Assembly (NCBI GenBank): GCA_951812945.1
Contig: CATOTB010000001.1
Location: 488,198-552,197, forward strand
Length of the DNA: 64,000 bases
Source: Candidatus Dadabacteria bacterium
GTDB lineage: Bacteria; Desulfobacterota_D; UBA1144; Nemesobacterales; Nemesobacteraceae
Direction: 5' to 3'
Below the pieces are notes generated by a model. That model was not told the DNA's origin. It was given only the letters and a program-made list of their open reading frames with translations, and made no database searches. This document shows, piece by piece, positions 12,923 through 27,124 of this stretch. The translations under genes and the position numbers were made by a program. Position 1 is the stretch's first letter, and each line of letters starts with the position of its first letter.

Positions 12923-14892
12923 GGCTCGACCTCGTCTGAGAGAAGAGGTTCCTGGTATCTCTCGAGCATGTCGAGGACATCGGAACCCGCGTGGATGAAG
13001 TCATCCGCCCCCGCCTGCGCAAGCTTCTCCCGCGTGCTTTGTCCGCCACCTGAAACAACAGCTTTTATTTCCGCTTTTCCGCTTTTGATTCTTCTTATCG
13101 CTTCTTTCCCTAGCTGCTCGTAATCTTTGTCGGAACCGCAGATCACTACCGCGAGCGGACTCTCGCGCAGAGCCGCTGCAACTCCTTCATCAACTCCCGG
13201 ATTTTCGGCTCCGTCAATTACTGCGAACCCTCCGCATCCGAAAAAATTCATCGAAAAAACCGATCTTGCGACTGTCTGCGGAGAATCGCTCAGATGAAGC
13301 AGGAAAACTTTCGGTGCCTCGCTCGTTTTTTCCGCGTGTTTTTCGCTTAGAAGCCTTATTTTCTCAAAACCTTGAGCTGCTCTTGATTCCGCAAGGGGCG
13401 CTACTTTAGGGGCCGAGCCATTCATCTTTTCTTCTATGGGTGGGGCTTTCCGGATGTGCGCCGACATCTTTTCCAGCAGGTTGGGAAACTCGTTTGTTCC
13501 GATGAGCGTTTTTTTCCTGCGTGAAATGTCGAGGAGTGTTTTTTTTCTGCTGTCCTCAATCGTCTTCTGTATGAACCCGCTTTTCAGGCACTCAAAGTAG
13601 CCGCCTTTTTTTTCTATTTTCTGGAACAGTTCTAGGGATTTCTGCGAAATGGACTGCGTCAGTTTTTCTATGTGATAGGAACCGCCCCCGGGATCGATCA
13701 CCGCGTCGAGATGGGACTCATTTTTTATCAGAAGCTGGATGTTTCTCGCCACTCTTCTTGAAAGTTCATCGGGTTCGCTGTAGTGGGCGTCAAAGGGTTC
13801 CACGGTCAGAGAACTTGCCCCCCCGATTACCGACGCCATGGCTTCAAGCGCCGTCCGCAGTATGTTTACGTGTGAGTCGTAAATGGTTTTGTTGAAGGTC
13901 GTGGTGCGGCAATGAATTCTCATTTTTGTAGATTCGAGGGAATCGGGTGAGAACTGTTGCGCGATGTTTGCCCAGAGCGCTCTTGCGGCGCGGAGCTTGG
14001 CGATTTCCGCAAAGTAGCTTGAGCCGGTGGAAAAGGAAAAAGCGAGGTGGCGGCAGGCACGGTCTGCGTCAACGCCCTTTTGGCGGAGCATGACCAGATA
14101 TTCGGCCGCGGCTGCAATCGTGAAAGCGAGTTCCTGGGTTATCGTTGCCCCTGAACTTTTAAACGTTGAACTTTTTACCGAAAACGCCGCGTAACCGGGC
14201 GCGGCATCGGATAGATATCCAATGGTTTCCGCGATCTTCTCCAGATTCTTTTCAAGCGCCGTTACTGAAGACCCGCCCGCAAGCAGCTGGGAGAGGGGGT
14301 CGAAAAACACGGCGCCGTCAAGTTCTCGGGTATCGATTCCTTTCTTGCTGCAGGCGGAAATGAAAAGCACGGAGACTTTTTCCGGATCTGCTCTTAAGGC
14401 AAAATTGAGGCTGGTCTGCAATGGGTCTATATCTTTTACAAGAGCTTCGATGACCTCGGGTTTCATTTCTGTTTCCGGGATGAAGGTGATTGAATCCACT
14501 CCACCCTTGATTGCCGCAAGCGCGTCGCGCGTCGCATCTTTCGGAGCGATAAGCTTTATCTCTTCTGTAAGAATCCAGCTGTTGTTTTTTTTGCCGGTTC
14601 CCCGGACAAACGGAAATTCTCCCGGAAGAGGATTTTTCCCCGTGAAAAAATCTCTTGCTTCTTCTTCGGTGTAGAAGGGTTCAACCGCTATACCGTCTTC
14701 AGTGGTCCATATAAGATCTTCGTAGGACCCCGGCTTTGCGATCTTTTTTTCAACTTCTTTTTTCCAGCTTTCCTTCGATATGCTTGGAAAATCATCGAAA
14801 AGAAGAGTCTGTGCGTGTTTTTTTTCCGTCTTACTCATAAAATCTGCGTTTTTCCTCTCAATCTCTTGGGTGAATAAGTATATAAGTCCCAT
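12919..14892 (-). CDS. mutA: methylmalonyl-CoA mutase small (beta) subunit
   Basis: 657 aa MCM-like protein directly upstream of mutB with a 4-nt overlap. Confidence 0.8.
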
Positions 14893-15210
14893 CTGTTTCT
14901 GCCAACATACTGAAACTGTTTAAGTTTCAATTTTTCCCGTCTGTTATAGTTTAAAAGCTACTTTTGCCAAATTTAAAAGATGACTTTGCCCAAGTCTGCC
15001 CCTTCGTAATTCCCCGTTATTATTGAGCTTTTCCTCGGATATCCCGCTGACCAAGGCCAAAAATGGAAGTAGCGATTATATGGCGATTTTGGCTTTTTTA
15101 TAGCGCTTAAGATATCAAATTGCCCAAGAATCCGAAGAAAAAACCCGAAAAAAGACAGCAATATCAAGGCATTAAGCAAAAATAACACGAGCGCTATACA
15201 ATCGCTAGTT

Positions 15211-15352
15211 TTGTTTTGAAGGGACATTTTGAAGGGACAAGAAAAATAAGCGATATCAGGGAGGTATGAAGGGACAAGGGACAATGAAGGGACAACCGCT
15301 GTTTTTAGGTAATTTAAGCAGTTACTTAATTTTTTTGGGAAATTGTCCCTTT
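15211..15352 (+). repeat. array of GAAGGGACA(A) motifs (4 full + 1 partial direct, 1 inverted)
   Basis: direct copies at 15218, 15231, 15268, 15287 with a partial at 15277 and an inverted TTGTCCCTT at 15343. Confidence 0.7.
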
Positions 15353-15382
15353 AAGTTGACAGACTTTATTTAACGCAATTCG

Positions 15383-16684
15383 GTGTTATCCCGATTGCAA
15401 GAACGGGGCACCCTCCATTGCGTCCAGCGTCAAGACGATAAAATTGTCCTGTGGCGCGAGAAGCAGACGCGCCTGGCACAGAACAGGAGGCTCCGAGTCT
15501 CTGTGGATGCCGCCGCTATCATACTCTCGTCAGATAGCATAAAAGTCGGCGAGAGGATAAAAGTTTCCAATAACATTCTCGACAGTGAAACCGATTGGGA
15601 AGTCGCGAGGAAGGAGGAAACTTGCGACGTATTTATCCAACTCGAGCTCGTTCCTTTGCCCGACATTTATCTATCGGACCCCAGCGATCTTGACCGCCTG
15701 ACAGGAGAACTCAGTTATTTCCAGACACCTAGAAATCTCCACTTAAACGAGAGCTCCTTTAAGCCGCCTACTGACTTCTCTCAGACACATCTGGAACCAA
15801 TACGAAACCTGTTTGCGCAAACCAAGAGCGTCGGGTCGGGAGATGAAAGCGTCTTCGTCTGCGAATTAAGCTACGAGGTCCCTGCCGAAAATTACTCGGG
15901 AGCTCAAGTCTGGCTGGTTTTGGGGAACACCGGAACTCCTCAGCGAGTTACGGACGAAGGGCTGGTTGTTGACAGGCTCTCGACAACGTCACGAAAAGCT
16001 CGGTTCAACCTTCCTTTGGAGATCGCTTCCTATACGGTGGTCGTGTACTCAGTCTCGGAGAATAAGGAATTGCTCGGGTTTCCTGTTTCCTTTCTGGTAA
16101 ACACTACTCCGGTTGCAAGTGCCGGCACTGACAGGAGCGTAGGGGCTGGAGCATTCGTAATGCTAAATGGCTCAGGATCTCACGATCCGGATGGTGACAA
16201 TCTCACCTATTTCTGGGAACAGCTGTCGGGAGCGCCCGTATCGATCTCAAACCCGACCTCGGAGCGGGCCAGTTTTACGGCTCCTTCGACGAGCTCCAGC
16301 CACATCTTGGAATTTCAGCTGACGGTGAGTGATGGGACGACAAGTGCGACTGATTCCGTTGTGATCAATGTAGGGAGATATGTTCCGCCGCTTCCGCCCC
16401 AAGAACAGTGGGAACGACTTGGGGCCCCCACTGGGTTTCAGCGTTATTTTGAAGGGAGTCTGAATCAATCTCAGAGATACACCTGGAATCTTGTTCCTAA
16501 TGCTAGAGCTTACAGAATTAGCTACGTGCACGAAGGAAGCCGACGACAGAGCGACGTGGGAGAACCGCCTGCCGCCTTTCTTCAATCTGTACCATTCACA
16601 GGAGTGAGAATCCAGGCTCTCGCGAACGCTTCCTGGCTGCTAGGAACTATTCCATATCTTAATTCCGAGTGGACTTATTTGTGA
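15383..16684 (+). CDS. PKD-domain-containing hypothetical protein (GTG start, no signal peptide; possibly a gene fragment)
   Basis: PKD-like segment (AGAFVMLNGSGSHDPDGDNLTYFWEQLSGAP...FTAP...LTVSDG); start codon and N-terminus uncertain. Confidence 0.5.
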   Translation: MLSRLQERGTLHCVQRQDDKIVLWREKQTRLAQNRRLRVSVDAAAIILSSDSIKVGERIKVSNNILDSETDWEVARKEETCDVFIQLELVPLPDIYLSDPSDLDRLTGELSYFQTPRNLHLNESSFKPPTDFSQTHLEPIRNLFAQTKSVGSGDESVFVCELSYEVPAENYSGAQVWLVLGNTGTPQRVTDEGLVVDRLSTTSRKARFNLPLEIASYTVVVYSVSENKELLGFPVSFLVNTTPVASAGTDRSVGAGAFVMLNGSGSHDPDGDNLTYFWEQLSGAPVSISNPTSERASFTAPSTSSSHILEFQLTVSDGTTSATDSVVINVGRYVPPLPPQEQWERLGAPTGFQRYFEGSLNQSQRYTWNLVPNARAYRISYVHEGSRRQSDVGEPPAAFLQSVPFTGVRIQALANASWLLGTIPYLNSEWTYL

Positions 16685-16806
16685 GAACAAGACGTAGAAA
16701 AAGCGCTGTTGGGACGAAATGATCTCAAAGAATTTTCAGCATTAATCGGCTTTTTTAGTTAACATAACACCCCAGATTTTGTGAATTTCGTGGCAATTTC
16801 ATGTTA

Positions 16807-16814
16807 TAAATTTG
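16807..16814. repeat. 8-bp direct repeat TAAATTTG (putative target-site duplication, left)
   Basis: identical 8-mer immediately outside both terminal IRs. Confidence 0.5.
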
Positions 16815-16845
16815 GGGAATTATAAAGGAAAGTTGACAAAACTTC
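16815..16845. repeat. terminal inverted repeat (left) of the IS1595-family element
   Basis: 31/31 match to the reverse complement of 21812-21842. Confidence 0.7.
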
Positions 16846-16854
16846 GTAACTCAC

Positions 16855-17025
16855 TCATTTGACTTCAACAATTTTTGGGTTGCCTTTGCTGTCTTTTTGG
16901 AGGGAAAATCGGCGTTCTAAATCCTCTTTTTTCGGCTTCTTCGGACGCTCATGCTTTACCGGTCCCATGCCGAGCAATAGCTTGGCAGCCTCGTCTACCT
17001 GGTCCCATTCATCTTTCTTGCTCAT
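16855..17025 (-). CDS. small hydrophilic Lys-rich protein, 56 aa (below the ORF-track cutoff)
   Basis: hand translation MSKKDEWDQVDEAAKLLLGMGPVKHERPKKPKKEDLERRFSLQKDSKGNPKIVEVK; third in a co-oriented run of tiny ORFs. Confidence 0.35.
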   Translation of the reverse strand: MSKKDEWDQVDEAAKLLLGMGPVKHERPKKPKKEDLERRFSLQKDSKGNPKIVEVK

Positions 17026-17034
17026 TTGGTCTAC

Positions 17035-17283
17035 CTAAACTACATAAGACATTATGATTCCTGCGATAATCCCGCCCGTAAGGAGAATTAGGGGCCATGC
17101 TATTCCTATCGCAAGCACTGCGAGCATGTACAAAACGAAGCCCACGCCGAAGACTACCATGAGGGTTTGCTCAAAGCCTTTGTTTTCACCCCGCTGTTGG
17201 CGTTCCCAGTCCCTTCGCTTGGCGTTCCGCTTCAGGAGTTTCTGTCGCTTCTCATGCTCTTCCCATGTAAGTTTGCTTGCCAT
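17035..17283 (-). CDS. 82-aa small membrane protein (basic N-terminus, C-terminal TM hairpin)
   Basis: ORF with a Lys/Arg-rich N-terminal 40 aa followed by two hydrophobic helices. Confidence 0.45.
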   Translation of the reverse strand: MASKLTWEEHEKRQKLLKRNAKRRDWERQQRGENKGFEQTLMVVFGVGFVLYMLAVLAIGIAWPLILLTGGIIAGIIMSYVV

Positions 17284-17286
17284 CGT

Positions 17287-17505
17287 CTAAATTTCGACTA
17301 TTTCTTCCAAGCCCTCTCTGTGTGCCTTAATCTGGTCTTCAAACTCTTGGTTTGTAACTCTGTCCAGTATTTGCCCAATCTGAATCTGTCCTTTTGCCAG
17401 TCCTTTAATGCCAGACTCAATTCTGTCAAAGCGTTTGGTGAACTTCTCATCCAGTTCGTTTATTGCATCTAATACTTTTTTGTTATCGTCGTGAATGATT
17501 GACAT
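17287..17505 (-). CDS. 72-aa small acidic coiled-coil protein
   Basis: ORF; TATAAT box about 35 nt upstream on the minus strand; spaced 4 nt from the next ORF. Confidence 0.45.
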   Translation of the reverse strand: MSIIHDDNKKVLDAINELDEKFTKRFDRIESGIKGLAKGQIQIGQILDRVTNQEFEDQIKAHREGLEEIVEI

Positions 17506-17666
17506 GGTATTCTTGTCTCTGACACAGTTCTCTTATCTGTAATTATAGCCGGCAAAATTGGAACTGTCTGAGATTTGTTCCCCCTATTTTGGTTTTTCAG
17601 ATACGGAAACCATACCTGATTTTGCCGGCAAATTCAAGGTGTTAGAACCATCATTCTACTTCTACC

Positions 17667-18152
17667 TTACCGACTGCAAGTCCCACCTAAAAGGCTATCG
17701 TAGAACGAACTGCGACGGCAGGAAAGTTCAGGGTAGTCATCTGCACTGAAACCCTCGAAAGCTACCGTCCTTCCAGAAGCTAGCGACCAAGTGGCAAAGT
17801 AATTTCTAGACGGAAAGTCCATTGAGAGTCCGACGTATTCGTCTCCATACTGGTCTCGGTAGCCTGCTAGCATCCATGTTCCACTGGTTGTCCTGTCGTC
17901 AAAAAAATCCGTCAAGTAGGCGGCAACTGTACCGTCTTCGCAGAAAGCAAGGGCTTCATATACATCTTCGTCGTCACTACAGCTCCATATACCACTTCCC
18001 TGGATGAGAATCGCTGTGAGTTGAGCAATATCAGCGAGAGTCTCTTCACTCTCTCCTCCAGTTATTTCAGAAAATCCATCTGGAAGGTTATCTCCTCCCC
18101 CGCAACTGGTAACAAACACTAATACCAAGAAAAGAGACAAAATCGTCCTCAT
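17667..18152 (-). CDS. acidic Cys-containing lipoprotein, hypothetical
   Basis: lipoprotein signal LVFVTSC at the N-terminus. Confidence 0.6.
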   Translation of the reverse strand: MRTILSLFLVLVFVTSCGGGDNLPDGFSEITGGESEETLADIAQLTAILIQGSGIWSCSDDEDVYEALAFCEDGTVAAYLTDFFDDRTTSGTWMLAGYRDQYGDEYVGLSMDFPSRNYFATWSLASGRTVAFEGFSADDYPELSCRRSSFYDSLLGGTCSR

Positions 18153-18305
18153 AACATCCTCCTAAGTTTGGATTTGACCTCGGCAAAAAAGGGTGCCGGG
18201 CCTTGCTTACAACCAAAGAGACTTTGGACGTTCTGCTTATTTCCCAGACGGGTATTGTATTCACAGAGACCCGACAGGGCGGGTTCTCTTCAGTTGTAAG
18301 CAATT

Positions 18306-18334
18306 TTGACTATATCACAGAAGGGCGGTATAAT
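18306..18334 (+). promoter_or_regulatory. near-consensus sigma70 promoter TTGACT-N17-TATAAT driving the S1 protease gene
   Basis: hexamers and 17-nt spacer read directly. Confidence 0.5.
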
Positions 18335-18402
18335 CTATGAAAGTTTTAATCTTGTGAAACACCCCCTGCCGAGTACATTCTCCAAATTTGGCAAGTAAAA
18401 AA

Positions 18403-19212
18403 ATGAAAAGACATCTAATTATCGCAATTTTGGCAGTAATTCTTGTGGGAATTTATGCAGTGTTGCTACACGGAGAGACAAAGACACAAGCACGTGAAAT
18501 CCCAACCTCAAATATTCTGAACAGGATTCTCCCAATAAGAGTTGAGGTTAAAGAAGAATCTACTTTTAGAATTAACGAGGGAACAGTTTTCACAATAGAG
18601 GTGGATGGAAGACAATACTTGATAACTGCGAAGCATGTAACCAACCATCAAGCGGTGGAAGTGATAGAGATTTGGAGAAATGGTGGATGGACAGCAGTAA
18701 AGGTAAAAACCGTAGGAGTAGGGAAAGGAAATGAGGACATTATTGTATTAGCCGCAGATGAGAGACTAACTACCACCTTTGAAATAGAAATAGGGAGTGG
18801 CGGGATAGTATTAGGTCAAAATGTAAAATTCTTGGGATTCCCTCTCGATATTGAAGTATATATGACCCAAGCTAAGGAATGGAGAGTGCCTGTCGTAAAA
18901 GGCGGTATCCTTACCACAATTGAATCTGAGAAAGGCTCGTCCTGGTTGCTGGTAGACGGGCATGGCAACAAAGGATTTAGCGGAGGACCTGTAATATTCA
19001 AGCCACGTGAAGAAAACACTAAAACATGGAGGATTGCTGGAGTAATAAGCAGGTTTGAACCAGAAATCTTGTCTGTGATAGATAGCACAGGGAGAAAGAT
19101 AGAAGGCTTAGGGGTTGTAGGAAACTCCGGCATTATGGTGGCAACAGGAATTGAAGCAGCTTTGAAGCTAATTAAAGCAAACCCCATAGGATATCTCGTT
19201 AAAGAAAAGTGA
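18403..19212 (+). CDS. membrane-anchored trypsin-like (S1/chymotrypsin-fold) serine peptidase
   Basis: N-terminal TM anchor; catalytic His context TAKHV and Ser motif GFSGGPV; the track ORF begins at an upstream TTG (18388) and ATG 18403 is more likely. Confidence 0.7.
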   Translation: MKRHLIIAILAVILVGIYAVLLHGETKTQAREIPTSNILNRILPIRVEVKEESTFRINEGTVFTIEVDGRQYLITAKHVTNHQAVEVIEIWRNGGWTAVKVKTVGVGKGNEDIIVLAADERLTTTFEIEIGSGGIVLGQNVKFLGFPLDIEVYMTQAKEWRVPVVKGGILTTIESEKGSSWLLVDGHGNKGFSGGPVIFKPREENTKTWRIAGVISRFEPEILSVIDSTGRKIEGLGVVGNSGIMVATGIEAALKLIKANPIGYLVKEK

Positions 19213-19250
19213 ACGAAAGCCTAACTTACTAATATGACTAAACAATCTAC

Positions 19251-19258
19251 CCCCCCCC
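19251..19258 (+). repeat. homopolymeric C tract (C8 by the coordinate grid) in the 5' region of the methyltransferase gene
   Basis: read directly; lies between an upstream ATG (19235) and the conserved MTase N-terminal region. Confidence 0.6.
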
Positions 19259-19310
19259 TAAATCTAACTGGAAAGACAAGACAGTTTTTACGGGAGACAA
19301 TCTCCCCATA

Positions 19311-20480
19311 ATGCGCAGGATGAATTCCGACTGCGTAGACCTGATTTACTTAGACCCCCCTTTCAACAGCAAAACAAACTATGCTGCACCTATTGGTAGT
19401 CATGCGGCCGGTGCCGAGTTTAAGGATACTTGGACTCTCTATGACATAGATATTGTCTGGCTTGATTTACTTGAAGCCAAGCATCCAGCACTCAATCGAG
19501 TTATTCACGCTACTTTGACCAAGAGTGATAAATCTTATCTGATTTACATGGCGATTAGGTTGCTGGAAATGAGGCGGATACTGAAACCGGCCGGAGGCAT
19601 TTATCTTCACTGTGACCCAACAATGAGTCACTATTTGAAGCTGGTAATGGATGCTATATTCGGAAGAGAGAATTTTAGAAATGAAATTATTTGGGCTTAC
19701 ACGGGGCCAGGGTCTCCCAATATGAGGCAGTTTAACCGCAAGCACGATGTGATCTTCTGGTACTCAAACGGTGAAGACTGGACATTTAATGGGGATGCTG
19801 TTCGAGTATTGCATAAAAAACCTATTGGGGCTGGAGGCACATCTACAAAATGGCTGAAAGAGAAAGAAGATTTGGCGGAAAAATACAAAGGCGGGAAGAT
19901 TCCCGAGACATGGTGGACGAGGTTTTCTCCTGTCGGAAGGATTAAGGGAGAACGCACTGGTTATCCCACACAGAAACCGAGAAAGTTGTTAAAGCGAATA
20001 ATTGAAGCTAGTAGTCCAAGAGGGGGCATTGTATTTGACCCATTCTGTGGTTGTGCTACGACCTGCATAGCCGCAGAGGAATTAAACCGGCAATGGATAG
20101 GAATTGATATCTCGCCCAAAGCGGCGGAACTTGTACAAACCAGAATACTGAATGAACTAGGTTTTGCTGGACGTGAACATCAGATAATTCACCGCCAGGA
20201 CATTCCACAGAGAACAGATTTAGGAGAGATTCCAAAGTACAACTGTAAGGAGAACAAGAACAGATTGTATGGAGAGCAAGGTGGGCATTGCAACGGATGC
20301 AGAGAACACTTCCAAATGCGTCATTTAGAAGTGGACCACATCATTGCTCGCTCACAGGGTGGCACAGACCACATTGAGAATTTGCAAATGCTCTGTGGAA
20401 ACTGCAATCAGATTAAAGGCAATCGTGGACACGAGTACCTGTTGGCAAGAATGGAAGGGAGAAAAGTACCCTACGCATGA
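19311..20480 (+). CDS. beta-class DNA methyltransferase (DPPF motif IV preceding FDPFCG motif I) fused to a C-terminal HNH endonuclease domain
   Basis: DLIYLDPPF, FDPFCGCATT, then HLEVDHIIARSQGGTDHIENLQMLCGNCN; the conserved N-terminal region extends upstream of ATG 19311 and is frame-linked to ATG 19235 only if the C tract changes length. Confidence 0.85.
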   Translation: MRRMNSDCVDLIYLDPPFNSKTNYAAPIGSHAAGAEFKDTWTLYDIDIVWLDLLEAKHPALNRVIHATLTKSDKSYLIYMAIRLLEMRRILKPAGGIYLHCDPTMSHYLKLVMDAIFGRENFRNEIIWAYTGPGSPNMRQFNRKHDVIFWYSNGEDWTFNGDAVRVLHKKPIGAGGTSTKWLKEKEDLAEKYKGGKIPETWWTRFSPVGRIKGERTGYPTQKPRKLLKRIIEASSPRGGIVFDPFCGCATTCIAAEELNRQWIGIDISPKAAELVQTRILNELGFAGREHQIIHRQDIPQRTDLGEIPKYNCKENKNRLYGEQGGHCNGCREHFQMRHLEVDHIIARSQGGTDHIENLQMLCGNCNQIKGNRGHEYLLARMEGRKVPYA

Positions 20481-20492
20481 CCAAACTACGAA

Positions 20493-20741
20493 TCAGTAAA
20501 AAAACTTTGCAGTTAAAATTCCAGAAATTACACCGATAGCTATAGCTGGCCATTTATCAAGAAAATAAGCTTTTAGACTGGGATATGCAGATGCCCTTTT
20601 TTCTAACCACCAAATTATAATCCAAACTATGCCAACGATACCAAGAACTTCCCGTGCCTCGATACTTGAAAAAACTTTTGAAAGGAGATACGCCGCTGCG
20701 AAAGAAACTAGGAACTGCCTGAATGTAGGGAGATGATTCAT
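20493..20741 (-). CDS. 82-aa small membrane protein, hypothetical
   Basis: ORF with 2-3 hydrophobic helices. Confidence 0.35.
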   Translation of the reverse strand: MNHLPTFRQFLVSFAAAYLLSKVFSSIEAREVLGIVGIVWIIIWWLEKRASAYPSLKAYFLDKWPAIAIGVISGILTAKFFY

Positions 20742-20764
20742 TTTCTGTTCACAAAAGCGGAGGT

Positions 20765-21697
20765 CTAAGAAGTCAGTTTTTCAAAGGTAATGGTCTTGCC
20801 CACCATAGCACCGAACAGGGCGTTCAGTCTATCTTCTGTATCAACCTTGCAACTTCCTTCGCTCAAACGAAAAGCGAACTCGTTGATATAGGCACGCATG
20901 TGCTTCTTACTCCAGTTGTGGTAAACGCCGTTGTATCCACGCTTCATGACCGCCCATACGCTTTCAATCCCGTTGGTAGAAGCCATGCCATTTACGAATT
21001 CTTTCGCTGAATGATTGACTGTTCCGTGTTCAAAATCCTTCCCGAGTAATCCGCTATAGCCTTTATGTTCATCCGTAAACACGATGGAACCCTTAACGAC
21101 ATTTTCGCTTATCTCTCTTTCGAGGGTTTCCGCGTCCCGTCTTTCAATAGGAATTGCCTTAGTCTTGCCGCCACGTTCTCTCATGCCGAGTACGCAGGTC
21201 TTTCCAACAGGTCCACGTCCGGCGTGAAGCTTCTTGGATTCGTGTTTGTTTTTTTCGAGACCTCCCAGAAAAGTTTCGTCTATTTCCACAACTCCCTTCA
21301 AGGCTTCCATATCGCTTCCGCAGGCAAGACGCAGACGGTGAAGCATGTACCAAGCAGTGGGTTGGGAAACAGCCAGTTCCTTGCTTAGCTGGAGACTGCT
21401 TATGCCCTTTCTGGCTGTCATTAGCAGATAAGCGGCGAATATCCACTTGCGAAGGTCAATCTTTCCATACTCAAGCGGAGTTCCGGTGCGAGCGGTGAAA
21501 TACTTGCGACAATTCCCGCACCAGTAACGTCCAGGGTGTTTGAATTGAGGGGTGATCTTCTCGGTGCTACCGCACCTTGTGCAGTGCCTCTTGTTACCCC
21601 ATCTCTGATTCTCAAGATACTTGATAGCATCTTCCTCAGTAGGATATTTCTGCATCAACTCGAACAAGCTGATTATCTTTGCATGTTTCTTTTTCAT
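20765..21697 (-). CDS. IS1595-family (ISXO2-like) transposase with N-terminal zinc ribbon
   Basis: CxxC...CxxC zinc ribbon (HCTRCGST...WCGNCRKYF) followed by a DDE ISXO2-like domain; 310 aa. Confidence 0.85.
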   Translation of the reverse strand: MKKKHAKIISLFELMQKYPTEEDAIKYLENQRWGNKRHCTRCGSTEKITPQFKHPGRYWCGNCRKYFTARTGTPLEYGKIDLRKWIFAAYLLMTARKGISSLQLSKELAVSQPTAWYMLHRLRLACGSDMEALKGVVEIDETFLGGLEKNKHESKKLHAGRGPVGKTCVLGMRERGGKTKAIPIERRDAETLEREISENVVKGSIVFTDEHKGYSGLLGKDFEHGTVNHSAKEFVNGMASTNGIESVWAVMKRGYNGVYHNWSKKHMRAYINEFAFRLSEGSCKVDTEDRLNALFGAMVGKTITFEKLTS

Positions 21698-21811
21698 GAT
21701 GGTATAAGATACCTGAAAAAGAAGGGTTTGTCAACTCTTGTTCCTGTTTTTTAGGAGAGTTCTCAGTGACTTAGATATTTCTTGATTCTAGCTTCGGAAA
21801 TGGGTTCAATA

Positions 21812-21842
21812 GAAGTTTTGTCAACTTTCCTTTATAATTCCC
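21812..21842. repeat. terminal inverted repeat (right) of the IS1595-family element
   Basis: exact reverse complement of 16815-16845. Confidence 0.7.
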
Positions 21843-21850
21843 TAAATTTG
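21843..21850. repeat. 8-bp direct repeat TAAATTTG (putative target-site duplication, right)
   Basis: identical to 16807-16814. Confidence 0.5.
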
Positions 21851-21868
21851 GCAAGATCATTTTACCCG

Positions 21869-22054
21869 TTATACTTGGCGATCCGAACTTCGCTCGTACC
21901 GCGCTGCCCCAACCATCTCATCTGCTTCAGAGTCAAGGACCTTGTTCAATACTTCCTCTACCGTATCGGTGACTATGGAGCTTAGGTGACCCCTAAGCTC
22001 CTCGTGGTTAATCTGAATTACCTTTTTGGGGCTCTTCGCTGTATAATCTCTCAT
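21869..22054 (-). pseudogene. N-terminal 61-codon fragment of an IS256-family transposase
   Basis: LNKVLDSEADEMVGAARYERSSDRQ matches the conserved IS256/mutator-type N-terminal region; reading frame decays after the stop. Confidence 0.55.
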
Positions 22055-22077
22055 GGCGGTGTTTCCTCCATGTTAAA

Positions 22078-22109
22078 TAAATTTAGGTAATTACCCCTAT
22101 AACTAGCCA
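22078..22109. repeat. 32-bp perfect inverted repeat, copy A (23 bp upstream of the IS256-like transposase fragment)
   Basis: TAAATTTAGGTAATTACCCCTATAACTAGCCA is the exact reverse complement of 22505-22536. Confidence 0.7.
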
Positions 22110-22444
22110 AAAGTAAAATGAGGGAGCGGTTGCTGGAGGACGGCACTGTCCTTGGTGTTTTTTGTATAATATTCGAGTGTTTTTGGATCTAATAGGGGGG
22201 GTGTATAGACTTAAGTTTACAAGTCCTCCAAACCCTGTATCGCTTCCTCGAACCCGCGGTGTAGTGCTTTAAATTCCAAGAGCCATCTTACCCCGGCGAC
22301 ATTTTTGCTTCTCGTGGAAGCAGGTAATTCATCGGACTGAATTCATGTTGGGGAGGTTTGAGAGTTCCATTTACTCGAGTGGAGCAGGGGAGGCTTATTA
22401 GGACCAACCGTTCTGTATCATCCTGAAATAACTTAGTATTTACC

Positions 22445-22474
22445 TTGACAAACAGTTAGACAGAAATATAGAAT
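22445..22474 (+). promoter_or_regulatory. putative promoter TTGACA-N18-TAGAAT inside the IR-bounded 395-bp segment, facing the 22571 ORF
   Basis: hexamers read directly. Confidence 0.3.
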
Positions 22475-22504
22475 TACCGTTAAGTACTATTATGATGGAG
22501 CAAG

Positions 22505-22536
22505 TGGCTAGTTATAGGGGTAATTACCTAAATTTA
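22505..22536. repeat. 32-bp perfect inverted repeat, copy B
   Basis: exact reverse complement of 22078-22109. Confidence 0.7.
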
Positions 22537-22570
22537 AGAGCACTATTTATCTAACCGGATTCATGAAGAA

Positions 22571-24004
22571 ATGCCGCCTCTTTTTTTAATTTGCGAAAAA
22601 TTTAAAGCGTTATCGATGTTGGGGGATAGAAACATAAGACTGTCGTTTGCTGCGCGATACTTACTAGCTACCTTTTTTTTGACTTCTTTACCGTATATTT
22701 CCATCGGTCAATCTACAAATGAGCTTGTGGGAAACTTGGGCTCCGCTCTTACGGTCGGACAGATAATAAATCAGGCGTCCGATGCGGCAGATGATTTGGT
22801 TACGGAGGGGTTTGATCGTTTTGATAGTTCGGTCTTGCTGGCAGCGACTGAAGCGAGAGCCACTGTAAATCAAGTGTCACTTCAACTCGCCGACTCAATC
22901 AATCTTTCGGTAGAGCAATTGGACTCGCAACAACGCAGAGTTATCTCAGATCTAGAGTCTTTGACGACGACAATTACCGAGGCAATAGCAAAAGACGTTG
23001 CGGACATAGTTACGCCTATTCAGGGTGACATCCGGTTACTATTATCTCGAAATCCTGGCTTCATACGTATTTCAGGAGGATTTGCCACACGACAAGATAA
23101 GTATCTTGAGTTCCAACTCAAAGGCACCGCTCTGTCTCAAGCGGACATTGATAACTTCCAAGTTAATTCTGTAGAGTCCAAACCGAATGTTGTTTCTAGC
23201 GATGACACGCACGTTAAGATACGCATCCCCCTTGATGAGCCACCAATCGCTGATCTTTTAGGCTCTGGCGACAGCTTCGATGAACTGATCGAGATTCCGA
23301 TAAGCTTCGTTTTGAAGGAATGTGGTTTGCTCGGTATGTTTTGTAATTATGATCGGAAATTTTCGCTACTTGGCTATGTATTTCCGGAAAACGTTGGAAC
23401 TGTAAAAGCTGTATTTGACGGATGGATCTCGACGGAAGAGCGGATGCAACGTAAGCTAGAGTTTATAAGCGATAAGGTGAGAACGAGGGTGCGTCTTCTT
23501 CCTCCTGAAGTTCGAGCTGGGGATCGGCGGGACATATGGTCCATGACTCCTCACGATGGGTGGAGAATTGATACCCGGTCGGCCGATTTCGATTTCGTTA
23601 AATTATATGGAGGATGCAGCAATTCGCGATGTTCCGCATCATGGGAAGAAAAAACAGAACACATACTCCGAGTTAAAGCAAGGACCTCGTCTGATAGGAG
23701 GGTCGGCGTAACCTGTAAGACATCGACAACCATTAAGTTTTCGCAATGGCGCACCAATACCAATCGCCATACCCATGAGACGGATGCCGTTGAGATTGTA
23801 GTCGATGGAACTACGCATCTTCCTTTGGATAAAACCATAGGTCTAACTAACGCGCGCCTTTCTCATCTAGTGATCCAATCGCCGTTGTTTCGACGAGGAG
23901 AGGAGAGGATACTCCGAGATGGCCAAAAAATTGGTGGACTGCGAGTAGAATACGACACTGCAACTCAAACCGTCTTTCTTCACAGCTCTATGAACATGAA
24001 CTAA
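22571..24004 (+). CDS. hypothetical 477-aa protein with N-terminal membrane anchor
   Basis: long ORF with no family I recognise; hydrophobic segment near the N-terminus. Confidence 0.45.
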   Translation: MPPLFLICEKFKALSMLGDRNIRLSFAARYLLATFFLTSLPYISIGQSTNELVGNLGSALTVGQIINQASDAADDLVTEGFDRFDSSVLLAATEARATVNQVSLQLADSINLSVEQLDSQQRRVISDLESLTTTITEAIAKDVADIVTPIQGDIRLLLSRNPGFIRISGGFATRQDKYLEFQLKGTALSQADIDNFQVNSVESKPNVVSSDDTHVKIRIPLDEPPIADLLGSGDSFDELIEIPISFVLKECGLLGMFCNYDRKFSLLGYVFPENVGTVKAVFDGWISTEERMQRKLEFISDKVRTRVRLLPPEVRAGDRRDIWSMTPHDGWRIDTRSADFDFVKLYGGCSNSRCSASWEEKTEHILRVKARTSSDRRVGVTCKTSTTIKFSQWRTNTNRHTHETDAVEIVVDGTTHLPLDKTIGLTNARLSHLVIQSPLFRRGEERILRDGQKIGGLRVEYDTATQTVFLHSSMNMN

Positions 24005-24100
24005 TGCGGTTTTATCGAACAGATCCTCTATATCTGTTGTCACAGAAGGGGTCCGGTCGGGGAATTGTTATTTGTTTTTTTCGACTTTAATATTAAGAAG

Positions 24101-24780: not shown

Positions 24781-25422
24781 GTGAAGGTAAACGAGATCTT
24801 TTTTTCAATACAGGGTGAAGGGATCCATATCGGGCTGCCGACAGTTTTTCTCAGGCTCTTTGCCTGCGATCTCAGATGCAGTTGGTGCGATACCATGTAC
24901 GCCGTGGAGGGAACCGACTTTCGGGAAATGGGAACCAGTGAAGTGCTGAGCCAGATTCTTAAATACAGCTGCTCCCGGGTCTGCATAACCGGAGGGGAAC
25001 CGCTTATCCAGCGGGAAGCCGTGGAGGAGGTGACGGAGTTTCTGCTTGATAGGGATTTTGTGGTCGTGCTTGAAACAAGCGGGAACAAGAAACCTCCCCG
25101 GATTTTCTCCCATCCCAATTCGGTTGTGAGCATGGACTGCAAGTGCCCCGGTTCGGGCATGGCCTCCAGAATGGATTTTTCCCTCTATGATGCCTTGGAG
25201 GAGAAGGACCAGCTTAAGTTCGTAATAGCCGACGATGCGGATTACGAATACGCAAGGGATATTATAGGGGAGCGTTGCGTCAGAGCTTCAATCATATTCC
25301 AGCCCGTTTACGGCACAAAAGCGGACTGGATAGCGGAGAGAATTCTCCGCGACGGCATGGAAGACATAAGAGTGCTTCCGCAGCTTCACAAAATATTCTG
25401 GGGAGAAAAAAGAGGAGTCTGA
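24781..25422 (+). CDS. queE: 7-carboxy-7-deazaguanine synthase (radical SAM)
   Basis: VNEIFFSIQGEG and the CxxxC-containing radical-SAM motif CDLRCSWCDT; GTG start at 24781 (the track ORF at 24661 overlaps queC). Confidence 0.82.
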   Translation: MKVNEIFFSIQGEGIHIGLPTVFLRLFACDLRCSWCDTMYAVEGTDFREMGTSEVLSQILKYSCSRVCITGGEPLIQREAVEEVTEFLLDRDFVVVLETSGNKKPPRIFSHPNSVVSMDCKCPGSGMASRMDFSLYDALEEKDQLKFVIADDADYEYARDIIGERCVRASIIFQPVYGTKADWIAERILRDGMEDIRVLPQLHKIFWGEKRGV

Positions 25423-25437
25423 GACCTCTTGCCTCTT

Positions 25438-26793
25438 TCATCGTTTTAAAACTTTGCTTAGGAAACTTGTTGAGAGCAAAGCAAATGTTATTAAGAACAG
25501 ATTGAGCAAGGTGCTTTGAGAAGTATTGTTGATTGACGCTATAGCGCACCCACCATCATTCTCTTCTTCCATATCTAGATAAATTCCAGAACCAACAAGA
25601 AAGAAAGACGGTGTCGGACGGCGACCCCCAGTCGTATCCACTACTTGAATATAGCTTTCCTTAACCGATCTGCCCGGAACTACGCTTCTTTCGAGATAAT
25701 CACTGACTTCATCACCATCAATTCCAGGGTGATCCCAATGATATTTAACAAAACCGCTATTTCCATCTGCTAAATCTGCTAAATCGCCACTTCCTTTTGT
25801 CACCACCTTTTGAAAAGCAACAAGGATGTTTGATTCAATATCTCCTTCATCGTTATATGGGATTGGCATTGGGTCTTCCAGTGAAACGCTTAATCCATGA
25901 AGGTCAAAGTCTAATCCATTTAGAAATGCCACTCCGCTTGTCGGGTCCATAATGAAAGGATATATTGTGCCGTATTTAAAATCCCCCGAAGCAAAGCAGG
26001 AGACTGTTTCACCAATTCGCACAAGGATTTCTTGCTGCCCTTCCGGAGTATTGGGGTCAAAGCCGTCTCTTCTTATTTCGCCAATCGTAGCAACTGCCAA
26101 TTCCAGTGTCTTGTTGATAATGTTTTTCACATAGCTTTGAAGCAACTCTCTTTTCTTCTCTGGATTTGTCTCGTCTTCAACCTGCTTGGCGGTAGTGTCG
26201 AGTCTAAAATTGGAGCAGTCAGGTGATTGTACGAAAGAAGCGTCAGGCTCATGATGAAAACCTACTATGCTGGTTATAAACCCAATAGTTGTTATGTTCT
26301 GTTTGATCGCGCATGCTGTTCTTTCTTGGCCGCCCTCACTATACCTTACGCAAACTGGATCGGCGCTTTCTTGAAATTCAGGAACATTATCAAATAAATC
26401 GTTTAGCGGATTTTCAGCGGAAAGATTGAATTTATCACCAAACGATTCTGGATATCGACCATGATTTAATATTGTCTTTCTCGAACTGACAACGGTTATA
26501 GAGTAAATATTGTTGTGATTAAAAACTCCAGGTTTTCTTGTTGTTCGTGCGAAGATTGTGCGCTCTTTTCCCTTTGCGTGCGATGTTTCAAGGGACTCGT
26601 CCTTATAAATTTTATCAATATGCGTGGCTCTATGGAGAAGAAGCTTTTTTATCTTCGCCACATCATTGGCATCGGCAACATCTTCTGCAGTTATATCAAG
26701 GTTTGCTGAATGACTATAATGTTTATACTGATGAGCGGACGCATTGATGGTAAGTGCAAAAAGCAGAACTAAAAATATTCCATATGATTTCAT
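25438..26793 (-). CDS. secreted hypothetical protein with signal peptide and a C-terminal hydrophobic anchor plus basic tail
   Basis: N-terminal signal FLVLLFALTINASA; C-terminal LLNLFLITFALLSTSFLSKVLKR. Confidence 0.45.
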   Translation of the reverse strand: MKSYGIFLVLLFALTINASAHQYKHYSHSANLDITAEDVADANDVAKIKKLLLHRATHIDKIYKDESLETSHAKGKERTIFARTTRKPGVFNHNNIYSITVVSSRKTILNHGRYPESFGDKFNLSAENPLNDLFDNVPEFQESADPVCVRYSEGGQERTACAIKQNITTIGFITSIVGFHHEPDASFVQSPDCSNFRLDTTAKQVEDETNPEKKRELLQSYVKNIINKTLELAVATIGEIRRDGFDPNTPEGQQEILVRIGETVSCFASGDFKYGTIYPFIMDPTSGVAFLNGLDFDLHGLSVSLEDPMPIPYNDEGDIESNILVAFQKVVTKGSGDLADLADGNSGFVKYHWDHPGIDGDEVSDYLERSVVPGRSVKESYIQVVDTTGGRRPTPSFFLVGSGIYLDMEEENDGGCAIASINNTSQSTLLNLFLITFALLSTSFLSKVLKR

Positions 26794-27124
26794 GTGCGAT
26801 TCTCTCCTCTTAGGCTTCCCTTATACTTATGGAGAATTACCCCCTTAAGTCACGACAGGTTATCGGCGTTAACCGAACACCATGGACTGTAAAAGTACAA
26901 TACAACTGCGAAGCAGCTGTCTCAGAAAGACATCCTCAACATTTAAGACACCTTCGCGTAATTGAAACCGCTTTCTAACAGGTCGCCCATTGATAACAAC
27001 CGGTCAGTATAGTCTCAATTATACTTTCCCCATACTCCCAAGATCAACTGGAATTTTACAATCCTACCAAACTTTAATGTTTTTGTTGCTATTATGTTAG
27101 AATTCAGGGTATAAAGAATAGGCC

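What the first reader, a model, noticed from the sequence alone, without database searches (positions are those of the whole stretch)
15211..15352. Array of GAAGGGACA(A) motifs (four full and one partial direct, one inverted) in a 490-bp AT-rich gene-free region
Seen directly: full direct copies start at 15218, 15231, 15268 and 15287, with a partial copy (AGGGACAA) at 15277, plus an inverted copy TTGTCCCTT at 15343. They lie between the mutA operon start and the PKD-domain ORF. Spacing is irregular (13, 37 and 19 nt), so this is not CRISPR. It looks like a cluster of binding sites for a DNA-binding protein (regulator array, iteron-like or nucleoid-protein sites). It marks the left boundary of the accessory region. 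No ORF-track ORF here looks real.
Basis: seen in the sequence. Interest (0 to 1): 0.55.

Follow-up and report, generated by a model that had tools for sequence, protein, structure and literature searches.

The report
Orphan satellite-type replication origin repeats
The repeat cluster is real and most likely the leftover replication origin (protein-binding "iterons") of a small phage-satellite-like mobile element whose helicase gene has been lost, so it is a recognisable relic rather than a new kind of system.

Summary
AAGGGACA occurs five times direct (15219, 15232, 15269, 15276, 15287) and once inverted (15344) within 134 nt. This is the densest 8-mer cluster in the 64-kb window. Only two other copies exist in the window.

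The array lies 273 nt inside a 9.1-kb insertion (14945-24032) that is absent from a 97.6%-identical relative. The "PKD ORF" is a phage tail-like gene truncated at 15443, so 14945-15442 is a separate 498-nt module.

The same 9-mer, in the same layout, lies immediately 3' of a conserved gene in six unrelated contigs. The layout is a few copies, a short AT-rich or palindromic centre, then four to six inverted copies, including the exact 17-mer GAAGGGACAAGGGACAA. Three of the six contigs were found by protein homology, not by motif. The gene encodes an RSF1010-RepA-type helicase with an extra C-terminal winged-helix-like domain. It sits in small integrase-bearing islands. This is the rep-ori arrangement described for SaPIs and PICIs.

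The window contains no such helicase and no integrase. Best reading: an orphan, probably inactive, iteron origin. Novelty is low to moderate.

The parts
14945..24032 (.). 9.1-kb insertion relative to close relatives. It is flanked by TCTGT at 14940-14944 and 24033-24037, and its ends read TATAG...CTATA.
   Evidence: blastn against L120 (97.6% identity), L121 and L123. Junction sequences were read directly.
14945..15442 (.). 498-nt non-coding module (39.6% GC) that holds the array. It has no homology to the tail-like gene that follows or to the empty site.
   Evidence: Homology to intact tail-like genes (L124, L125) starts sharply at 15443. No match in annotated phages or plasmids.
15218..15226 (+). 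Iteron copy 1, GAAGGGACA. It is part of a 13-nt tandem TTTTGAAGGGACA x2.
15231..15239 (+). Iteron copy 2, GAAGGGACA.
15268..15284 (+). Overlapping double iteron GAAGGGACAAGGGACAA (copies 3 and 4). The 17-mer is identical to the centre-adjacent element of the arrays in L166, L218 and L226.
15286..15294 (+). Iteron copy 5, GAAGGGACA.
15296..15342 (.). AT-rich centre (47 nt, 29.8% GC) between the direct set and the inverted copy. It is the candidate melting region.
   Evidence: The analogy is to the AT-rich centre of SaPI and PICI origins (PMC9371898; PMC6092414).
15343..15351 (-). Single inverted iteron (TTGTCCCTT on the + strand). It corresponds to the helicase-proximal side of the family layout.
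   Evidence: The nhmmer orientation agrees.
15443..16684 (+). 5'-truncated phage tail-like gene with a PKD domain. Intact homologues are 573-584 aa.
   Evidence: The homologue in L125 sits in a phage contig with ERF, YqaJ and a methylase.
14951..15128 (+). Three 22-nt repeats TTAAAAGnTnACTTTGCCmAAn at 14951, 14973 and 15107, next to the left junction. Their role is unknown.

Best explanation
The array is an iteron-type replication origin of the kind carried by small integrative, phage-satellite-like islands. In those islands the origin sits directly after the gene for a self-loading initiator-helicase. Here that protein is an RSF1010-RepA-type hexameric helicase with an added C-terminal winged-helix-like DNA-binding domain.

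Inferred mechanism in intact elements, by analogy with SaPI Rep and PICI Pri-Rep: the C-terminal domain binds the GAAGGGACA repeats on both sides of the centre. The AT-rich or palindromic centre melts, and helicase hexamers load there.

In this window only the cis element survives. It has five distal iterons (15218-15294), an AT-rich centre (15296-15342) and one proximal inverted iteron (15343-15351). The helicase gene, which should lie to the right on the minus strand, is gone. A truncated phage tail-like gene is fused there at 15443. The array is therefore most likely an orphan relic inside a decayed 9.1-kb mobile-DNA insertion. It would be inactive unless a matching helicase is supplied in trans.

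Shown here: the motif, the layout, the gene-array association elsewhere, the insertion and the truncation. Inferred: binding, origin function and inactivity.
For: (1) The array is real and unique in the window.

(2) It lies in DNA that is absent from relatives at 97.6% and about 87% identity. It sits next to phage-derived and IS-derived genes.

(3) The motif search found L166, L218 and L226. In each, the array begins 0-80 nt after the stop codon of mutually homologous AAA_25 proteins (36-49% identity).

(4) A motif-independent test retrieved homologues by protein search. L237 has 2+5 copies and L238 has 3+5 copies of AGGGACA within about 170 nt after the gene, and 0-1 copies elsewhere in 6-10 kb. 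L229 has GGACA variants in the same layout. L232-L236 and L239 have the same layout built from GCAGACA or ACAGACA.

(5) The exact 17-mer double iteron is shared with L166, L218 and L226. A profile of the six family arrays hits window 15214-15284 on the minus strand with E=0.0015. This is the best hit in the window plus four control loci.

(6) The gene is a RepA-type helicase: PDB 1g8y at E=4e-18 and Foldseek target-normalised TM 0.86-0.88 to RepA. It has about 100 extra C-terminal residues modelled as helix-helix-helix-beta-hairpin at pLDDT above 90.

(7) The islands carry integrase, an HTH_17/AlpA-like gene, sometimes a primase domain, and HNH or capsid genes.

(8) Published SaPI and Gram-negative PICI origins are two sets of short iterons in opposite orientation. 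They flank an AT-rich region immediately downstream of rep (PMC9371898; PMC6092414).
Against: No helicase of this family is present in the window. No remnant of its 3' end was found either: tblastn, C-terminal-domain HMM and full-length HMM were all negative. There is no integrase in the insertion.

Only one inverted copy is present, whereas SaPI origins are described with at least two on each side. The centre (47 nt) is longer than in the family (9-25 nt) and lacks their CTAAAG core.

The profile E-value (0.0015) is modest and rests on a short repeated motif. The same 8-mer also forms unrelated minisatellites in many genomes. In some viral contigs it forms arrays inside other replication genes. 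The motif alone is therefore not diagnostic.

Origin function of the family arrays is inferred by analogy and was not demonstrated.
Confidence: 0.6

Rival explanations
1. Operator or enhancer array for a transcription factor that controls the downstream (truncated) PKD/tail-like gene or a divergent transcript.
For: The array lies upstream of an ORF. A TTGACA hexamer follows the inverted copy at 15356-15361. Short direct repeats with 11-13 nt spacing suit response-regulator-type binding.
Against: The downstream gene is a 5'-truncated fragment fused at 15443, so the array is not its native upstream region. The promoter scan found no sigma-70-like site on the + strand here; its only site is on the minus strand near mutA. 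In six other loci the same array follows a helicase gene regardless of what lies downstream, which may be HNH, a sigma-like gene, a capsid gene or an unknown gene.
Confidence: 0.12
2. Origin iterons of a different initiator type. This would be a phage replisome-organiser or HTH_36 initiator, as in lambda, where the ori lies inside gene O.
For: GAAGGGACA arrays with 11-12 nt period lie inside replisome-organiser-like genes in L136, L173, L181, L203 and L211. They also lie inside an HTH_36 gene upstream of DnaB in L205, L150 and L164. The insertion contains phage-derived genes.
Against: Those arrays are all-direct tandems inside coding sequence. The window array is non-coding, with stop codons in the GAA-GGG-ACA frame. 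It has an inverted copy across an AT-rich centre. It shares the 17-mer double iteron specifically with the RepA-type family.
Confidence: 0.1
3. Arm-type binding sites for a tyrosine integrase (or transposase subterminal sites) near the left attachment junction of the inserted element.
For: The array is within 273-407 nt of the left junction. The junctions share TCTGT(T), which is compatible with an att core or a 5-bp target duplication. Arm-type sites are short repeats in mixed orientation.
Against: There is no integrase or transposase other than IS1595/IS256 remnants. There is no copy of the motif, even with one mismatch, near the right end at 23.5-24.0 kb. In the family islands the array is next to the helicase gene, not next to the integrase or the island ends.
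Confidence: 0.06
4. A small RNA that sequesters a GGA-binding protein (CsrA/Rsm-type sponge), or another structured RNA.
For: Each repeat contains GGA. Several copies are clustered.
Against: No Rfam match was found even at E up to 10. The single-strand fold is no better than shuffles (z=-0.02). There is no terminator-like site.
Confidence: 0.03
5. Slippage-generated minisatellite with no function.
For: AAGGGAC(A) heptamer and octamer tandems are common in many bacterial genomes.
Against: The copies here are not head-to-tail: the spacings are 13, 37, 8 and 10-11 nt. One copy is inverted 57 nt away. The flanks of the copies are conserved as (T/A)TGAAGGGACAA. The layout matches a gene-linked element elsewhere.
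Confidence: 0.04

Closest known systems
SaPI / PICI replication origins (rep-ori modules of phage-inducible chromosomal islands)
   Same: Short iterons lie in two oppositely oriented sets around an AT-rich centre. They are placed immediately downstream of the gene for a self-loading initiator-helicase with a C-terminal winged-helix domain. The islands carry an integrase and an AlpA-like gene (PMC9371898; PMC6092414). The family found here shows the same arrangement.
   Different: According to PMC9371898, SaPI Reps belong to a different helicase clade (AAA+, pre-sensor II insert). The helicase here is RSF1010-RepA/DnaB-like. The iterons are 9 nt rather than 5-6 nt. In the window itself the rep gene and integrase are missing and only one iteron remains on one side.
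IncQ plasmid RSF1010 replication system (RepA helicase, RepC initiator, oriV iterons)
   Same: The helicase core is homologous (27% identity, PDB 1g8y). The origin is iteron-based.
   Different: In IncQ plasmids, from my own knowledge, the iterons are about 20-22 bp direct repeats bound by a separate protein, RepC, and RepA has no DNA-binding C-terminal domain. In the tblastn against plasmids, only residues 42-299 of the family protein matched the IncQ RepA helicase. Here the helicase carries its own extra C-terminal domain, and the iterons are 9 nt in inverted sets.
Satellite phage P4 alpha protein with ori/crr
   Same: From my own knowledge, P4 alpha is a primase-helicase whose C-terminal domain binds octamer repeats (TGTTCACC) present in direct and inverted orientation at ori and crr. 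P4 is an integrase-bearing satellite. PMC6092414 notes that P4 replication depends on alpha and its cognate ori.
   Different: The helicase family and the iteron sequence differ. P4 needs two separated sites (ori and crr). No sequence homology was tested or found here.
Archaeal plasmid pRN1 origin downstream of orf904
   Same: The origin lies in the sequence directly downstream of the primase-helicase gene (PMC4234260 abstract).
   Different: pRN1 is archaeal, its helicase is superfamily 3 (PMC2777425 abstract), and its origin architecture differs.

Membership tests
Iteron origin of RepA-type-helicase integrative islands (PICI/SaPI-like rep-ori module) | Iteron sequence matches that of family members. 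| tested here: met
   The exact 9-mer GAAGGGACA and the exact 17-mer GAAGGGACAAGGGACAA are shared with L166, L218 and L226. The family profile hits 15214-15284 (minus strand) at E=0.0015.
Iteron origin of RepA-type-helicase integrative islands (PICI/SaPI-like rep-ori module) | Two iteron sets in opposite orientation flank an AT-rich or palindromic centre, with at least two iterons per side in SaPIs. | tested here: inconclusive
   Five direct copies, a 47-nt centre at 29.8% GC, and only one inverted copy. L166 and L229 also have only one exact copy on the proximal side.
Iteron origin of RepA-type-helicase integrative islands (PICI/SaPI-like rep-ori module) | Located immediately 3' of the cognate initiator-helicase gene. 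| tested here: not met
   No family helicase or C-terminal remnant is present anywhere in the 64-kb window. A truncated tail-like gene is fused 91 nt from the proximal iteron.
Iteron origin of RepA-type-helicase integrative islands (PICI/SaPI-like rep-ori module) | Resides in an integrated island with an integrase and an AlpA-like gene. | tested here: not met
   The array lies in a 9.1-kb insertion with phage and IS remnants. No integrase or AlpA-like gene was found.
Iteron origin of RepA-type-helicase integrative islands (PICI/SaPI-like rep-ori module) | Bound by the helicase C-terminal domain and supports replication. | not testable with these tools
   This needs EMSA or footprinting and a plasmid-maintenance assay.
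CRISPR array | Regularly spaced repeats of about 24-48 nt with unique spacers of similar length. | tested here: not met
   The repeats are 9-12 nt, with spacings of 13, 37, 8 and 10-11 nt and one inverted copy.
Integrase arm-type sites of an attL/attR | An integrase with an arm-binding domain in the element, and matching sites on the other arm. | tested here: not met
   No integrase was found. No motif copy (up to 1 mismatch) lies near the right end.
CsrA/Rsm-sequestering sRNA | GGA motifs in hairpin loops of a discrete transcript with a promoter and a terminator. | tested here: not met
   No Rfam hit. Fold z=-0.02. No terminator-like site.

The most novel reading that the evidence does not exclude
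The orphan origin is kept because it works in trans. When a satellite or phage encoding a matching RepA-WH helicase enters the cell, the chromosomal iterons could do one of two things. They could titrate the initiator, acting as a decoy that interferes with the invader. Alternatively, they could fire and amplify the adjacent accessory genes (methylase-HNH, protease, secreted proteins) for packaging or dosage.
Probability: 0.05. Interest if true: 0.7.

Novelty: new member of a known kind. Interest (0 to 1): 0.3.

Why it matters
For the window itself, the result turns an unexplained repeat cluster into a dated scar. It shows that the mutA-queC gap is an insertion hot spot that once held a replicating satellite-like element, later fused to a phage tail-gene fragment.

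More generally, the follow-up defines a testable protein-DNA pair. RepA-type helicases with a C-terminal DNA-binding domain are linked to 9-nt GAAGGGACA iterons, and a sister group uses GCAGACA. These occur in small integrase-bearing islands of uncultured bacteria.

The pair could be used to annotate origins and satellites in metagenomes. It could also be used to study how initiator specificity switches. None of this overturns current understanding.

Tried and rejected
- **Rfam scans.** The region was scanned at E up to 10 and the whole window at gathering scores. Only a chance IMES-5 hit and one tRNA-Gln were found.
- **Single-strand folding of the array.** No better than shuffles.
- **Exact-protein lookup of MutB.** Not on record.
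- **Genome-collection scan for three spaced AAGGGACA copies.** More than 119 hits, mostly 7-18-nt minisatellites in many phyla. None lies next to the helicase family.
- **Viral scan for two GAAGGGACA copies.** The 88 hits are roughly what my own rough estimate of chance predicts. It was useful only after filtering for three or more copies.
- **All-against-all clustering of ORFs near motif arrays.** No single family was shared by most loci. It did reveal the replication-gene link.
- **Protein-pattern scan of viral contigs with the helicase alignment.** Only L166 was recovered.
- **Search for a helicase remnant right of the array.** An apparent 'RLDAG...GI.P' resemblance in one frame was not supported by tblastn, the C-terminal-domain HMM or the full-length HMM.
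- **Small-ORF reading MKGQGTMKGQP... from 15266.** Rejected because GGAGG is only 1 nt from the ATG and there are no homologues.
- **Minus-strand 103-aa ORF.** No Pfam or PHROG match.
- **Tn7-like ends (5-bp duplication, 22-nt repeats).** Rejected: no TGT...ACA termini, no repeats at the right end and no Tns genes.
- **Homology between the 477-aa and 451-aa unknown proteins.** None.
- **Homology between other genes of the insertion and genes of the family islands.** Only a generic HNH match.
- **blastn of the 498-nt module against annotated phages and plasmids.** No match.
- **Single-sequence AF2 model of the C-terminal domain.** Poor (pLDDT 69), and its Foldseek search was meaningless. The winged-helix call therefore rests only on the secondary-structure order in the high-confidence full-length model.
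- **Literature search for AAGGGACA together with iteron.** No papers.

Full report
**1. The observation.**
Reading 14700-15900 and exact pattern searches confirm the repeats.
- GAAGGGACA is at 15218, 15231, 15268 and 15286.
- One inverted copy, TTGTCCCTT, is at 15343-15351.
- Four exact 9-mers were found against 0.69 expected, and none of 100 shuffles reached four.
- The 8-mer occurs six times in 134 nt and only twice elsewhere in 64 kb.
- No other 8-mer in the window exceeds three copies per 140 nt.
- The conserved unit is 12 nt, (T/A)TGAAGGGACA(A/T). The first two copies form a perfect 13-nt tandem.
- The region is 37.6% GC, against 49.6% for the window.

**2. Context.**
- The left neighbours are mutA, mutB and meaB on the minus strand. 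MutA homologues are 639 aa, so the start is probably 14838.
- I fetched syntenic contigs of close relatives through MutA homologues. Against L120, which is 97.6% identical in nucleotides, the window aligns up to 14944 and again from 24032. L121 (about 87% identical) has the same empty site.
- The window therefore carries a 9.1-kb insertion between mutA and queC. Both junctions carry TCTGT, and the insert ends read TATAG...CTATA. This could be a 5-bp target duplication or a short recombination core. I could not decide which.
- A third relative, L123, has a different insertion at the same place.
- The insertion encodes a PKD-domain ORF, small proteins and lipoprotein-like proteins. It also encodes a trypsin-like peptidase, an N6/N4 methylase-HNH fusion and an IS1595 transposase. 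An IS256-like transposase fragment and a 477-aa secreted-looking protein complete it. It has no integrase and no replication protein.

**3. The PKD ORF is a truncated phage gene.**
- Its homologues P0126 and P0134 are 573-584 aa. P0121 extends far upstream of the window ORF.
- Nucleotide and translated alignments to L124 and L125 begin abruptly at window 15443.
- L125 is a phage-like contig with ERF, YqaJ, a methylase and a homing endonuclease.
- The stretch 14945-15442 is therefore a separate 498-nt module joined to a tail-like gene fragment. The array is not that gene's native upstream region.

**4. What the array resembles.**
- A scan of GTDB genomes for three spaced copies mostly returned minisatellites, so the motif alone is not diagnostic.
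- Among viral contigs with two copies, those with three or more irregular copies were linked to replication genes. Some arrays lie inside replisome-organiser-like or HTH_36 genes upstream of DnaB. Others lie directly after primase-helicase genes.
- L166 showed direct similarity to the window array, including the 18-mer GAAGGGACAAGGGACAAT.
- A metagenome scan for GAAGGGACA followed within 31 nt by GAAGGGACAAGGGACAA added L218 and L226.
- In all three loci the array starts within about 80 nt of the stop codon of an AAA_25 protein. The three proteins are 36-49% identical to each other, including their C-terminal ends.

**5. A test that does not depend on the motif.**
- I searched with the protein alignment and fetched contigs for six homologues.
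- L237 carries two GAAGGGACA copies after the gene, then a small palindrome, then five inverted copies.
- L238 carries three copies, an AT-rich centre and five inverted copies.
- L229 shows GGACA variants in the same layout.
- L232-L236 and L239 show the same layout built from GCAGACA or ACAGACA.
- The 7-mer AGGGACA occurs 5-8 times within 300 nt of the gene end, and 0-1 times in the rest of each 4-14-kb locus.
- The elements are small islands. Their order is integrase, small genes including HTH_17/AlpA-like, sometimes a primase domain, the helicase, the array, then HNH or capsid genes.

**6. The protein.**
- P0257 residues 44-310 match the RSF1010 RepA helicase (PDB 1g8y, E=4e-18).
- An AlphaFold model built with 65 homologues has mean pLDDT 92. 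Its best Foldseek hits are RepA structures, with target-normalised TM 0.86-0.88.
- Residues about 320-403 are extra. They are modelled with pLDDT above 90 as three helices followed by a beta-hairpin.
- I read that order as winged-helix-like. This is an inference, because a separate model of the domain was poor and its fold search was meaningless.
- In annotated plasmids only IncQ RepA matches, and only over the helicase core.

**7. Comparison with the window.**
- Read on the minus strand, the window array has one copy (15351-15344), a 47-nt centre at 29.8% GC, then five inverted copies at offsets 58-126. L166 has one copy, then six at offsets 33-98.
- A profile of the six family arrays gives its best hit at window 15214-15284 on the minus strand (E=0.0015). 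That places the five copies on the helicase-distal side.
- The helicase gene should therefore lie to the right of 15352 on the minus strand. Nothing of it remains.

**8. Interpretation.**
- Published SaPI origins consist of six to twelve short iterons immediately downstream of rep. They are split by an AT-rich region and point in opposite directions. They are bound by the winged-helix C-terminal domain of a self-loading helicase (PMC9371898).
- Gram-negative PICIs likewise have two iteron sets flanking an AT-rich region, and their rep-ori fragment replicates a plasmid (PMC6092414).
- The family found here has the same arrangement with a different, RepA-type helicase.
- I conclude that the window array is most likely an origin of this type that has lost its initiator. 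I rate this at about 0.6.
- Binding, melting and present inactivity are inferred, not shown.
- The main weaknesses are the missing helicase and integrase, the single proximal iteron, the longer centre and the modest profile score.

**9. Rivals.**
I considered and ranked lower five alternatives:
- a transcription-factor operator array;
- an origin for a replisome-organiser-type initiator;
- integrase arm sites;
- a CsrA-type sRNA;
- a plain minisatellite.
The Rival explanations section gives the evidence for and against each.

**10. Novelty.**
- The kind of element, an iteron origin downstream of a satellite rep gene, is known.
- The specific pairing of RepA-type helicases bearing a C-terminal DNA-binding domain with GAAGGGACA iterons was not found in the paper library. 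It appears undescribed, but it fits the known paradigm.
- The feature in this window is a relic. I score interest at 0.3.

Noticed in passing
window 25419-27072: A second indel relative to L120. About 1.65 kb replaces about 46 nt and carries a 451-aa protein with a signal peptide (25438-26793, minus strand) and no Pfam match.
   Followed up: partly
window 20765-21697 and 21869-22054: An intact IS1595-family transposase gene, and next to it a 61-aa fragment resembling the N-terminus of an IS256-type transposase. Both lie inside the 9.1-kb insertion.
   Followed up: partly
window 19311-20480: A fusion of an N6/N4 DNA methylase with a C-terminal HNH nuclease. It gives a strong PHROG methyltransferase match.
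   Followed up: partly
window 14951-14994 and 15107-15128: Three 22-nt repeats, TTAAAAGnTnACTTTGCCmAAn. The first two are tandem and start 7 nt inside the left junction of the insertion. Their role is unknown; they could be end-binding sites of the former element.
   Followed up: no
window 17548-17632: Inverted repeat GCCGGCAAAAT ... ATTTTGCCGGC in an intergenic gap of the insertion.
   Followed up: no
L123 6343-9890 (relative of the window): The same mutA-queC gap holds a different insertion (SRCR-domain and Cache-domain proteins). It is flanked by a partial duplicate of the mutA 5' region, which suggests a recurrent insertion hot spot.
   Followed up: partly
L120 15105-16325: The 97.6%-identical relative has a TnpB/OrfB_IS605 gene between meaB and the GNAT gene. 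The window lacks it.
   Followed up: no
L136, L173, L181, L203, L211; L150, L164, L205 (viral contigs): Tandem GAAGGGACA arrays (period 11-12 nt, or 22-nt palindromic units) lie inside genes resembling phage replisome organisers or HTH_36 initiators upstream of DnaB. Apparently different initiators use the same 9-mer.
   Followed up: partly
L232-L236, L239 versus L166, L218, L226, L229, L237, L238: The iteron sequence switches between GCAGACA and GAAGGGACA among homologous helicase islands. The switch tracks differences in the segment preceding the conserved KAM-RI helix of the C-terminal domain. There are too few independent cases to test.
   Followed up: partly
window 15441-15449 versus 15340-15348: The tail-gene fragment begins with ATTGTCC, the same 7 nt as the inverted iteron ATTGTCCCTT. 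The fusion might therefore have arisen by microhomology with a lost iteron copy. This is speculative.
   Followed up: no
window 14838-14892: The longest mutA ORF (657 aa) extends 18 codons beyond the start used by all close homologues (639 aa). The real intergenic region is therefore about 54 nt longer than the ORF map suggests.
   Followed up: partly
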